Source: Escherichia coli (GTDB lineage Bacteria > Pseudomonadota > Gammaproteobacteria > Enterobacterales > Enterobacteriaceae). Taken from it: a DNA stretch of 64,000 nucleotides. The position numbers were made by a program. Where the stretch lies: NCBI RefSeq assembly GCF_048403405.1, contig NZ_CP183129.1. One strand, written 5' to 3'. Within the stretch, counting starts at the first letter, position 1; the number at the start of each line of letters is the position of its first letter. This document shows positions 41,500 through 44,400 of this stretch, piece by piece.

Positions 41500-44400
41500 G
41501 GTTATGCGCTGATGCCTGATGCGGCGCGGGCGCGTCTTATCATGCCTGGAAGTCTGCGCCCGAATCGTAGGCCGCCTCCGCTATATTAACTGGCATTGGC
41601 AAATTACTCGTCACTACCTTTATTCATGTTTTTTTGGTCTTCATCCGGATAATGTTTTTTTAGATATTCCAGGACGTTTTTATTGACCTTGTGTTGCGTA
41701 TACACCCACCCTTTCCAGTAATCAGGCTGGTCCAGGTAAACTTCTGGCGGAATGGTGAAATCAGAAAGCGTTAACCATTCGGCTAACAGATCGGGGTTTC
41801 GTTTCTGGATTAACTGCAACAGCATAATCAGTGACATAGCTGAGGCAGGAGCCGTACTATCGCCACTTAAATATTTCCACACTGTTGACCGGTTCGAACG
41901 AAAAAGGATCGGTAGCAATGCCCGGTCCAGATTCATTTCATTAAAAATCTTCTCAAATTCATTCATTTAAATTTTCCTGCCTGGCGTAAACCTCTTAAAA
42001 ATTGAGATTTATCAAAGAAACGCATTTTAGCACACATCAGGAACCGGTTCACGTTTAGTCCAGAAACAGAATTTATTTCGCTTATCAAAACAAGTCTTTA
42101 CTCTTTTTTACATTGAAAGAGCACAAAATGATTTTCGATTTTATTTATATAAGAAACATTTTTTGTTTCTTATTGGTTGTGTTTACGCTTACACCAGACA
42201 AAAATGCGCTTTACATCACACAAATGGCGGCGTAGATTTCGATTAAATTGCAACGCAGTTTATTTCTTAAAACAATATTATTTGTTTCTTATAGAAACAT
42301 TAATGCGACTTATTTTGAACAAGAGAAAATGAATGAAAACTGTAAACGTAGCTTTACTGGCACTCATAATTTCAGCAACATCCAGCCCTGTTGTTTTAGC
42401 TGGTGATACCATTGAAGCGGCGGCAACAGAGCTTTCAGCCATTAACTCTGGCATGTCGCAATCGGAGATTGAGCAGAAGATTACCCGCTTTTTAGAACGC
42501 ACAGACAACAGCCCCGCTGCGTATACCTATTTGACTGAACATCACTACATCCCTTCTGAAACACCTGATACCACTCAGACTCCCACTGTCCAGACAGATC
42601 CTGACGCAGGACAAAAAACCGTTGCCGCTACAGGTGATGTACAGACAACCGCCCGTTATCAGAGCATGATCAACGCCCGACAGTCTGCGGTAACTGATGC
42701 CCAGCAAACGCAAATTACAGAGCAACAGGCGCAGATCGTAGCCACACAAAAAACGCTCGCCGCGACTGGAGATACGCAAAATACTGCGCATTATCAGGAG
42801 ATGATTAATGCCAGACTGGCGGCTCAAAATGAGGCTAATCAGCGCACTACCACGGAACAAGGGCAGAAAATGAATGCACTGACAACCGATGTGGCAGCAC
42901 AACAGCAAAAAGAAAGGGCTCAATACGATAAACAAATGCAAAGTCTGGCGCAGAAGTCTGTCCAGGCACATGAGCAAATTGAAAGTCTGAGACAAGATTC
43001 CGCACAAACGCAGCAACAGTTAACCAACACGCAAAAACGGGTCGCAGATAACAGCCAACAAATTAACACGCTCAATAACCATTTCGATTCTCTGAAAAAC
43101 GAAGTTGAGGACAATCGTAAAGAAGCCAATGCGGGAACTGCATCTGCCATCGCTATCGCCTCACAACCACAGGTGAAAACCGGTGACTTGATGATGGTGT
43201 CAGCGGGAGCGGGAACGTACAACGGTGAATCTGCGGTGTCTGTAGGAACATCTTTTAATGCCGGAACGCATACGGTACTTAAAGCAGGTATTTCTGCGGA
43301 TACACAATCTGATTTCGGTGCGGGTGTCGGCGTGGGATATTCGTTCTAATTTTAACAGCAATTTCTTATTCGCAATTTTCCGTACATTATTTAAGGTTAA
43401 CAATGATGAATAGCTCCATTAAATCGTTTTCCCTGCTGGCGGTTATATTACTGGCTGGCTGTAGTTCACCCACTTCCCGCATCGCAGATTGCCAGGCGCA
43501 GGGCGTCAGCCATGACACCTGTTATCTCGCAGAACAACAGCGTCAGGCGGCTATTTTAAGTGCATCAGAAGCGCAGGCATTTAAAAATGCAGAAGCCGCA
43601 CAACATGCCCAGGCCGCTAAAAAATCTATTTATAAAGGATTTGGCATGACCTTTAGAATGAGCAGTAAGAACTTTGCTTATCTCAATGATTCATTATGTG
43701 CAATTGATGAAGACAATAAAGATGCCACTGTTTATCAGTCAGGTCTTTATAACGTCATTGTTTATCACCACACGGGAAAAGTCGCCTTAATGAAGGAAGG
43801 TCAGTTTGTGGGTTATTTAAAATGAAAGAGCAAAGGAAAATCCCCCTGACGCATATTATGATTATCGGTGCGTTTATTTTTGCCTTCTTGCAAGTGGTGT
43901 TATTAGCCTCCCTGGTTCACGCTGTGAATGTTAACAACGAAATCCAGGAAGGCTTATTTCAGTCGGGGCGCATTATGGTAGAAAGTTTGCAGCATATTCT
44001 TTCGGTGCAAACGGGGATTAACTGATTTTCACCCCGCCCGATGATGACAGCAGCCGGAGAGATTTTCGATAATCGGGCAGTCGGCGCTGTCATCGCCAGG
44101 GCAGGCATTCGCCAGCGCCAACAGCTGGTTGCGCATGGATTGCAGTTCTTCGATATGTCGCTCGATCTCCGCCACTTTCTCCAGGGTGCGACGTTTGACG
44201 TCGGCACTGTGACGCTGCGGATCGTTAAACAGATTCACCAGTTCGCCGCTCTCTTCCAGGTTAAAGCCCACCTGGCGCGCCTGGCGCAGTAAGGTCAGTT
44301 CGTTGAGATGCTGCTGCGTGTAGGTTCGATAACCATTTTCGCTGCGCATCGGCGGCGTCACCAGCCCCTTCTCTTCATAGAAGCGAATGGCTTTGCTGGT

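What the first reader, a model, noticed from the sequence alone, without database searches (positions are those of the whole stretch)
41967..42332. Repeated AGAAACA/TGTTTCT palindromes in the divergent promoter of the islet
Two perfect 7-bp inverted repeats share half-sites but differ in arrangement and spacing: AGAAACA-N5-TGTTTCT at 42152-42170 and TGTTTCT-N3-AGAAACA at 42283-42299. Extra AGAAAC half-sites lie at ~42016 and ~42062. This looks like an operator array for a dimeric regulator, possibly the divergently encoded 120-aa protein, controlling the TAA-like gene. I do not recognise the motif as that of a known E. coli global regulator.
Basis: seen in the sequence. Interest (0 to 1): 0.5.

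Follow-up and report, generated by a model that had tools for sequence, protein, structure and literature searches.

The report
Operator array for an overlooked adhesin-cassette regulator

Summary
Both palindromes are exactly where stated. Palindrome 1 has 10-bp arms (42149-42173). The 7-mer or its complement occurs 5 times in this 366-bp spacer against 2 times in the other 63.6 kb (shuffle P about 0.005).

The locus is O-island 29 of pathogenic E. coli. The "TAA-like gene" is z0639, published as "gmrA". The 120-aa gene is z0640.

The four-gene cassette, with a 356-408 bp spacer, recurs in Pseudocitrobacter, Symbiopectobacterium and metagenomes at different chromosomal sites.

Across 11 lineages the half-site GAAAC is the best conserved non-promoter element. 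Together they give an alternating array with a 22-bp period.

The sites overlap a predicted promoter of z0640. They also flank a conserved promoter of the adhesin gene, as pairs at about -95/-73 and +24/+46.

Binding, and whether regulation is positive or negative, are untested. This is a new member of a known kind. The published "transcription factor" GmrA has a signal peptide and a YadA membrane anchor.

The parts
41604..41966 (-). z0640 ortholog: 120-aa XRE-type helix-turn-helix protein, the candidate regulator
41967..42332 (.). 366-bp divergent intergenic region at 30.6% GC, carrying the operator array and two predicted promoters
   Evidence: Orthologous spacers are 356-408 bp long.
42006..42022 (.). 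Site A (GATTTATCAAAGAAACG). The half-site AGAAAC at 42016-42021 is conserved in 13 of 14 aligned spacers. The site overlaps the predicted transcription start of z0640.
   Evidence: All 17 positions are invariant within Escherichia.
42024..42032 (-). Predicted extended -10 (TGcTAAAAT on the minus strand) of the z0640 promoter. The inferred start is near 42017.
   Evidence: Read directly from the sequence. It is conserved as TGnTAAAAT or TGcTATCAT in orthologs. The consensus scan did not call it because the -35 is poor, so this is an inference.
42052..42068 (.). Site B (CGTTTAGTCCAGAAACA), centred about 43 bp upstream of the inferred z0640 start
42087..42111 (+). Conserved block AAAAC-N5-TTTAC-N5-TTTAC with a 10-bp phase. 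It is not part of the palindrome motif and may be a site for a second factor.
   Evidence: Conserved columns. The resemblance to OmpR boxes is from memory only.
42142..42158 (.). Site C1 (TATTTATATAAGAAACA). Its right arm is the left arm of palindrome 1.
   Evidence: 12 of 14 positions. The arm AAGAAAC is invariant in nine Escherichia alleles while the next 7 nt vary.
42149..42173 (.). Palindrome 1, ATAAGAAACA-N5-TGTTTCTTAT (GAAAC-N7-GTTTC). It is the junction of sites C1 and C2.
   Evidence: I13. The N7 arrangement is specifically enriched across lineages.
42164..42180 (.). Site C2 (TGTTTCTTATTGGTTGT). The right arm is degenerate in E. coli but reads AGAAAC or GGAAAC in Pseudocitrobacter and metagenome orthologs.
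   Evidence: L009 TGTTTCCAATAGAAACA, 13 of 14; L014 TGTTTCTATAAGAAATT, 12 of 14.
42210..42238 (+). Predicted sigma-70 promoter of the YadA-anchor gene: TTTACA (42210-15), 17-nt spacer, TAGATT (42233-38). The inferred start is near 42245.
   Evidence: It is the only promoter-like site found in the scan. It is the most conserved block of the spacer: GCTTTAC.T.ACA ... GGCGTA..TT.
42250..42254 (+). GCAAC here, GAAAC in most orthologs: a conserved half-site at about +6, roughly 44 bp (two periods) before the GAAAC of site E
42261..42277 (.). Site D (TATTTCTTAAAACAATA). It is weak here but a good dyad in orthologs, for example AATTTCTTATAGAAACA in L014.
   Evidence: It lies 22 bp from site E.
42283..42299 (.). 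Site E, which is palindrome 2: TGTTTCT-TAT-AGAAACA, at about +46 in the predicted 5' leader. Its GAAAC starts 39 nt before the start codon.
   Evidence: The right arm is invariant in all lineages. The same 39-40 nt distance is seen in the 44%-identity ortholog L021.
42333..43349 (+). z0639, published as 'gmrA': 338-aa protein with an N-terminal signal-peptide-like sequence, a Q-rich coiled coil and a C-terminal YadA membrane anchor. It is the likely regulated gene.
   Evidence: Translation. Pfam YadA_anchor E = 6.1e-12, residues 279-338. RefSeq names it 'YadA family autotransporter adhesin'. The gmrA-R deletion primer arm matches 42294-42332 apart from one allelic base.
43403..44025 (+). Downstream cassette genes: a 140-aa lipoprotein (43403-43825) and a 67-aa membrane protein (43822-44025). 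They are probably co-transcribed with z0639.
   Evidence: The same gene order is seen in orthologous cassettes.

Best explanation
The spacer is the control region of a small, horizontally mobile four-gene cassette: an XRE-type regulator, divergent from a YadA-anchor surface protein, a lipoprotein and a small membrane protein. In E. coli this cassette is O-island 29.

The spacer carries at least six sites built from the half-site AGAAAC(A). The half-sites alternate in orientation with spacers of N5 and N7, so neighbouring sites sit 22 bp apart, two helical turns, on one face of the DNA.

Sites A and B cover the predicted start and the -35 area of z0640's own promoter, which implies autoregulation.

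The pairs C1/C2 (about -95 and -73) and D/E (about +24 and +46) bracket the conserved promoter of the surface-protein gene (z0639, 'gmrA'). The pairs are 119 bp apart and are themselves a 34-nt direct repeat. My preferred reading is repression, by a downstream roadblock and possibly by a loop between the two pairs.

For: - Enrichment.
- Sites matching the 17-mer at 10 or more of 14 positions number 4-6 per spacer against about 0.5 expected. This gave P <= 0.007 in 11 of 14 orthologous spacers, many of them closely related.
- GAAAC arms are more conserved across genera than the rest of the spacer: 0.78 against 0.64, Mann-Whitney P = 3e-5.
- The inverted partner matches at 4 or more of 5 positions only at N5 upstream (22%) and N7 downstream (22%), against 0-7% at all other spacings.
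- Lag 22 is the strongest self-similarity lag summed over 14 spacers, about 4 sd above the mean.
- Within Escherichia the arms of palindrome 1 are kept while its 7-nt spacer varies freely.
- The promoter TTTACA-N17-TAGATT is the only hit of the scan and the best conserved block.
- The regulator is divergent from a YadA-anchor gene in every close ortholog with enough contig, in at least five different chromosomal contexts, and also at 44% identity, where AGAAAC and the 22-bp pair persist.
- A remote family member has a different half-site (ATGTCC/GGACAT) in the same 22-bp alternating layout upstream of its own gene.
- Palindrome 2 with its flanks occurs once per genome, as expected for a local regulator.
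Against: - The left (GTTTC) arms are not positionally conserved across genera (P = 0.79). Within Escherichia, arms against the rest of the spacer is only P = 0.065. A dimer on a true dyad is therefore less certain than one strong half-site.
- The orthologous spacers are related, so counts over lineages are not independent.
- Both transcription starts are predictions.
- In the O157/O55 allele, the right arm of palindrome 1 is mutated to GTTTTT.
- Only 64 kb of this genome, plus near-identical copies in other genomes, could be scanned, so other targets are not excluded.
Confidence: 0.62

Rival explanations
1. [not shown]
For: The upstream pair is centred near -73 and -95. The spacer is 30.6% GC in a 54.9% GC window, which is typical of H-NS-silenced islands (general knowledge). 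gmrA transcription responds to temperature, pH and osmolarity (PMC5826968), as many H-NS-controlled genes do.
Against: Deleting z0640 did not copy the motility defect of the gmrA deletion. Three conserved half-sites lie downstream of the predicted start, which is a repressor-like position.
Confidence: 0.22
2. [not shown]
For: GAAACA and TTTACA resemble OmpR half-sites (from memory). A conserved 10-bp-phased AAAAC/TTTAC/TTTAC block lies at 42087-42111. gmrA expression falls at high osmolarity and away from neutral pH.
Confidence: 0.12
3. Palindrome 2 acts at the RNA level, as a hairpin in the 5' leader of the adhesin mRNA that affects stability or translation. It could act alone or be bound by the HTH protein, as described for Aca2.
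Against: The leader folds no better than shuffles (z = -0.58). The left arm is absent in most other genera and reads GTTGCT, a mismatch, in many Escherichia alleles. There is no Rfam match in the spacer. Palindrome 1 and sites A and B lie outside any predicted transcript leader.
Confidence: 0.05
4. The repeats are a chance product of AT-rich, low-complexity intergenic DNA and have no function.
For: The spacer is AT-rich. The P values of about 0.005 are per region, and a reader of 64 kb sees many regions.
Against: Shuffle controls, a 60-fold density excess over the rest of the window, conservation of half-sites across genera against a diverged background, specific N5/N7 spacing and the 22-bp periodicity.
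Confidence: 0.02

Closest known systems
Lambdoid phage repressors and their tandem operators (lambda cI at OR1-OR3/OL1-OL3; 434 and P22 c2)
Anti-CRISPR-associated autorepressors Aca2 and Aca1
   Different: Sequence identity is only 13-19%. The genomic context is different, with no acr genes. There are six or more sites with a 22-bp period rather than two inverted repeats. RNA binding is not supported here.
Restriction-modification controller C-proteins (C.Esp1396I, C.AhdI, C.BclI) and their C-boxes
   Different: There is no restriction-modification system in the cassette. The operator sequence and spacing differ. C-proteins are about 80 aa and lack the extra C-terminal helices.
HTH antitoxins that autorepress their operons (MqsA, HigA/HigA2)
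   Different: No toxin gene is adjacent in any of the loci examined. The partner gene is a YadA-anchor protein transcribed divergently, not an overlapping two-gene operon.
[not shown]
   Same: The DNA is the same: the deletion-primer arms map to 42294-42332 and 41968-42005. The gene downstream of the palindromes is gmrA, whose transcription was shown to vary with temperature, pH, osmolarity, growth phase and host-cell contact.

Membership tests
[not shown]
   [not shown]
[not shown]
   [not shown]
[not shown]
   This needs EMSA, footprinting or ChIP.
Bacterial operator array of a local transcription factor | A repeated, dyad-related motif enriched over composition-matched chance | tested here: met
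   (P 0.004-0.005).
Bacterial operator array of a local transcription factor | Motif and geometry conserved in orthologous control regions while the surrounding sequence diverges | tested here: met
   For the GAAAC half-sites and for the N5/N7 spacing and 22-bp period, the feature is met. The GTTTC partner arms are not positionally conserved across genera.
Bacterial operator array of a local transcription factor | Sites overlap or flank the promoters they control | tested here: inconclusive
   They do so relative to the predicted promoters (and the sequence itself). No transcription start has been mapped experimentally.
Bacterial operator array of a local transcription factor | Regulator gene linked to the sites | tested here: met
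   The regulator gene is divergent and adjacent in all loci examined across at least five chromosomal contexts.
Type II toxin-antitoxin module (MqsA/HigA-like antitoxin) | Adjacent co-transcribed toxin gene | tested here: not met
   The neighbours are ybbJ plus a REP element on one side and the divergent YadA-anchor gene on the other. No toxin-family Pfam domain is found next to it in any locus. A RES/Xre pair in L009 is a separate module further downstream.
Trimeric autotransporter adhesins, YadA family (for the regulated 338-aa gene z0639/'gmrA') | N-terminal signal peptide, coiled-coil stalk and C-terminal YadA-like membrane anchor | tested here: met
   The N-terminus MKTVNVALLALIISATSSPVVLA|GD is read; no signal-peptide predictor was available. 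Pfam YadA_anchor covers 60 of 60 model positions, E = 6.1e-12, residues 279-338, together with weak coiled-coil-type hits. NCBIfam hits the EmaA and Vomp C-termini. RefSeq names it a YadA family adhesin. There is no recognisable head domain, so it is a minimal member.
Known E. coli global-regulator motifs (CRP, FNR, Fur, LexA, ArcA, PhoP, Cra, KdgR, OmpR and others) | Match of TGTTTCT-N3-AGAAACA or AGAAACA-N5-TGTTTCT to a described consensus | not tested
   I compared these from memory only. The nearest are the OmpR half-sites (GAAACA/TTTACA, but as 10-bp direct repeats) and KdgR/Cra (GAAAC..GTTTC, but with N3/N0 spacing). A full-text search for the half-sites together with 'operator' found nothing. 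No motif database was available.

The most novel reading that the evidence does not exclude

Probability: 0.3. Interest if true: 0.6.

Novelty: new member of a known kind. Interest (0 to 1): 0.45.

Why it matters
O-island 29 is present in about a quarter of complete E. coli genomes (1413 of 5426), including O157:H7, O55:H7 and extra-intestinal lineages.

Its middle gene has entered the EHEC literature as a transcriptional activator of flagella (GmrA). Its expression responds to temperature, pH, osmolarity and host-cell contact, yet no promoter, operator or regulator has been described for it.

This analysis supplies a concrete, testable control region. It gives two predicted promoters, six or more defined sites and a named candidate regulator that was previously dismissed as a hypothetical protein without phenotype.

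It also flags that 'GmrA' has the sequence of a secreted, membrane-anchored YadA-family protein. That calls for re-examination of how it affects motility.

More generally, it is a clean example of a local XRE-type regulator travelling with an adhesin cassette between genera.

Tried and rejected
- Direct annotation of the 120-aa protein failed. NCBIfam gave no hit. Pfam gave only MqsA HTH at E = 0.12. PDB sequence searches with the protein and with a profile gave only noise.
- A first AF2 model from 13 close homologs was unusable, with pLDDT 57. It became confident only after adding remote relatives from the 1.84-billion-protein search.
- The species-level genome scan found the family in only 4 species, so comparative data had to come from exact-protein context look-ups.
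- I tested whether the left (GTTTC) arms are positionally conserved across genera. They are not. I therefore dropped the idea that the perfect palindromes as such are the conserved unit.
- RNA readings were rejected. The leader folds no better than shuffles. Rfam finds nothing in the spacer, only a REP/naRNA4 element outside it. There is no terminator-like site.
- A toxin-antitoxin reading was rejected for lack of any toxin gene.
- Text searches for the motif and for further work on z0640 found nothing beyond the GmrA paper and reviews.
- A BLAST search for a second copy of palindrome 2 plus flanks in 5426 E. coli genomes found only this locus. That search cannot see diverged sites.
- A whole-genome motif scan could not be run.

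Full report
**1. The observation**

The sequence contains AGAAACA (42152-58), TTTTT, then TGTTTCT (42164-70). It also contains TGTTTCT (42283-89), TAT, then AGAAACA (42293-99), exactly as reported. The repeat finder shows that the first dyad has perfect 10-bp arms, ATAAGAAACA/TGTTTCTTAT, 42149-42173 (I13). The extra AGAAAC half-sites are at 42016 and 42062.

The interval 41967-42332 is precisely the spacer between a 120-aa ORF on the minus strand and a 338-aa ORF on the plus strand. It has 30.6% GC in a 54.9% GC window.

The 7-mer or its complement occurs 5 times here and only twice in the other 63.6 kb. In 5000 dinucleotide-preserving shuffles of the spacer, a 7-mer that frequent arose with P = 0.005. 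Two separate perfect inverted repeats sharing a half-site arose with P = 0.004.

17-mers matching TGTTTCT-N3-AGAAACA at 10 or more of 14 positions number 5 in the spacer and 14 in the rest of the window. Both matches at 12 or more of 14 are in the spacer.

**2. Where this is**

The window is E. coli, 100% identical to strain TUM14771. The four small genes between ybbJ and cueR are:
- the 120-aa hypothetical protein;
- a 'YadA family autotransporter adhesin';
- a 140-aa lipoprotein;
- a 67-aa membrane protein.

Together they form O-island 29 of EHEC O157:H7. Yang et al. 2018 (PMC5826968) named z0639 'GmrA' and reported it as a transcriptional activator that binds the fliA promoter.

Their deletion-primer homology arms settle which gene is which. 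The gmrA-R arm matches window 42294-42332, apart from one allelic base, directly upstream of the ATG at 42333. The z0640-F arm is the reverse complement of 41968-42005. So gmrA is the 338-aa gene and z0640 is the 120-aa gene.

That paper shows that gmrA transcript levels peak at 37 C, pH 7, low osmolarity and exponential phase. Levels rise transiently on host-cell contact. It describes no promoter or regulator. Later reviews add none. Deleting z0640 had no motility phenotype.

**3. The two proteins**

The 338-aa product starts with a typical signal-peptide-like sequence (MKTVNVALLALIISATSSPVVLA/GD). It has a glutamine-rich coiled-coil region and ends in a complete YadA-like membrane anchor (Pfam PF03895, 60 of 60 positions, E = 6.1e-12; NCBIfam EmaA/Vomp C-termini). 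It is a minimal trimeric-autotransporter-type surface protein.

The only 'DNA-binding' signal I found in it is a weak coiled-coil match (TMF_DNA_bd, E = 0.079).

The 120-aa protein has no direct annotation. An exhaustive HMMER search found only 23 cluster representatives in 1.84 billion proteins. Some remote members hit Pfam MqsA-HTH, Xre-like-HTH, HTH_3 and HTH_26 at 3e-5 to 4.5e-4.

**4. Comparative anatomy of the spacer**

In every locus with enough contig, the gene is divergent from a YadA-anchor gene. That gene is usually followed by the lipoprotein and the small membrane protein. The spacer is 356-380 bp.

The chromosomal sites differ: ybbJ-cueR in E. coli, qmcA-fetA or qmcA-cnoX elsewhere, next to nrdAB, and others. 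A 44%-identity relative is again divergent from a YadA-anchor gene, with a 408-bp spacer. The cassette moves as a unit.

Alignments of 8, 14 and 11 spacers show a diverged background with sharp conserved blocks:
- AAAGAAACG followed by CATTTTAGC (42014-42031);
- CAGAAAC (42060-67);
- AAAACAAG..TTTAC (42087-42101);
- the GTTTC at 42165-69;
- GCTTTACATCACA...GGCGTAGATTTC (42207-42240);
- GAAAC (GCAAC in E. coli, 42250-54);
- AGAAAC at 42293-98;
- the ribosome-binding region.

**5. Promoters (predicted)**

The conserved block contains TTTACA (42210-15), 17 nt, then TAGATT (42233-38). This is the only sigma-70-like site the scan finds in 41900-42400. The start of the adhesin transcript should therefore be near 42245.

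On the minus strand, 42032-42024 reads TGcTAAAAT, an extended -10. It is conserved as TGnTAAAAT in most orthologs. This places the z0640 start near 42017. Both starts are inferences.

**6. The site architecture**

Scanning each orthologous spacer with TGTTTCT-N3-AGAAACA (10 or more of 14 positions) gives 4-6 sites per spacer against about 0.5 expected. P was 0.007 or lower in 11 of the 14 spacers, many of which are closely related.

The sites fall at homologous positions. In window coordinates:

| Site | Coordinates |
|---|---|
| A | 42006-22 |
| B | 42052-68 |
| C1 | 42142-58 |
| C2 | 42164-80 |
| D | 42261-77 |
| E | 42283-99 |

C1-C2 and D-E are each 22 bp apart. The two pairs are a 34-nt direct repeat, 79% identical and 119 bp apart (D1), bracketing the promoter.

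I then anchored only on exact GAAAC (46 sites in 11 lineages) and asked where an inverted GTTTC lies. A match at 4 or more of 5 positions occurs at N5 upstream in 22% of cases and at N7 downstream in 22%. At every other spacing from 0 to 15 it occurs in 0-7%.

N5 + N7 plus two 5-bp arms equals 22 bp. The 'two different arrangements' are therefore the two junctions of one alternating array.

Lag 22 is also the strongest self-similarity lag summed over 14 spacers, about 4 sd above the mean.

Across genera the GAAAC arms are significantly better conserved than the rest of the spacer (0.78 against 0.64, P = 3e-5). The GTTTC arms are not positionally conserved (P = 0.79). The strong, fixed element is therefore one half-site, and partner arms turn over.

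Within nine Escherichia alleles, both arms of palindrome 1 are kept while the 7 nt between them vary freely. The exception is the O157/O55 allele, where the right arm reads GTTTTT. Palindrome 2 alternates between GTTTCT and GTTGCT on the left, with an invariant right arm.

The 44%-identity locus L021 still has four AGAAAC, one dyad (TGTTTCTAAAAGAAGC) and a 22-bp AGAAAC pair. The last GAAAC there lies 40 nt before the start codon, against 39 nt here.

A remote family member (L025) has ATGTCC-N7-GGACAT-N3-ATGTCC upstream of its own gene. This is a different half-site in the same 22-bp alternating layout. Another (L024) has a 22-bp tandem repeat. These are single examples, but they suggest that the geometry belongs to the protein family.

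**7. Mechanism**

Site A spans the inferred z0640 start, and site B spans its -35 area. This is the classical position for negative autoregulation.

For the adhesin promoter, the pairs sit at about -95/-73 and +24/+46, with a further conserved half-site at about +6. I favour repression, by roadblock and possibly by a loop between the two pairs.

Three things support this reading:
- three conserved half-sites lie downstream of the start;
- XRE-type relatives of this size are mostly autorepressors;
- deleting z0640 did not mimic deleting gmrA.

An activator or anti-silencer role from the upstream pair is a serious alternative, because the DNA is AT-rich and horizontally acquired.

An RNA hairpin role for palindrome 2 is unlikely (z = -0.58; the left arm is not conserved; no Rfam family).

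**8. Distribution**

The spacer is present once, on the chromosome, in 1413 of 5426 complete E. coli genomes at 87-100% identity. Palindrome 2 with its flanks is found only at this locus.

**9. Verdict**

The system is a new member of a known kind: a local XRE-type regulator with tandem operators on a divergent promoter region.

Two points make it more than routine. The regulator belongs to a tiny unannotated family with a fixed 22-bp register. The gene it most likely controls is published as a transcription factor although its sequence is that of a secreted, membrane-anchored surface protein.

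Noticed in passing
[not shown]
   Followed up: partly
window 42087-42111 (+): A conserved block AAAAC-N5-TTTAC-N5-TTTAC with 10-bp phasing lies between the two predicted promoters. It is kept in most orthologous spacers. From memory it resembles tandem OmpR half-sites, which would fit the reported osmolarity and pH dependence of gmrA. This was not tested.
   Followed up: no
window 41469-41546: There is an Rfam naRNA4 (REP-derived) match of 71.9 bits, E = 1.7e-12, between ybbJ and the 3' end of z0640. It lies at the edge of the islet. It explains why almost all E. 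coli genomes gave many short hits to the first query (3-44 places per genome).
   Followed up: partly
window 44029-44436 (-) and 44433-45608 (-): cueR, the copper-responsive MerR regulator, starts 4 bp inside the stop of the HlyD-family type I secretion gene. It therefore sits at the tail of the giant-adhesin/T1SS gene string (5394-aa ORF at 47771-63955, ABC transporter, HlyD). In K-12, from memory, cueR stands alone. Its promoter context here may be altered.
   Followed up: no
window 47771-63955 (-): This is a 5394-aa ORF annotated in RefSeq as 'BapA-related adhesin SiiEA', frameshifted in strain TUM14771. It runs on towards the end of the window and belongs to the neighbouring island (OI-28-like).
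   Followed up: no
[not shown]
   Followed up: partly
L028-L031 (E. coli ST69, MS1494, S1-KEN-07-A, TUM13936): In several E. coli lineages RefSeq annotates no CDS immediately downstream of the spacer, although the ATGAAAACTGTAAA start region is present. The adhesin gene may be variable, differently started or a pseudogene in those lineages.
   Followed up: no
L008 (GCA_014857685.1): This copy of the cassette and its surroundings is broken into many short ORFs (qmcA, ybbJ, fetA and the YadA-anchor gene are all fragmented), next to transposase fragments. It is either a heavily pseudogenised genome or a low-quality assembly. The spacer itself is nearly identical to the window.
   Followed up: no
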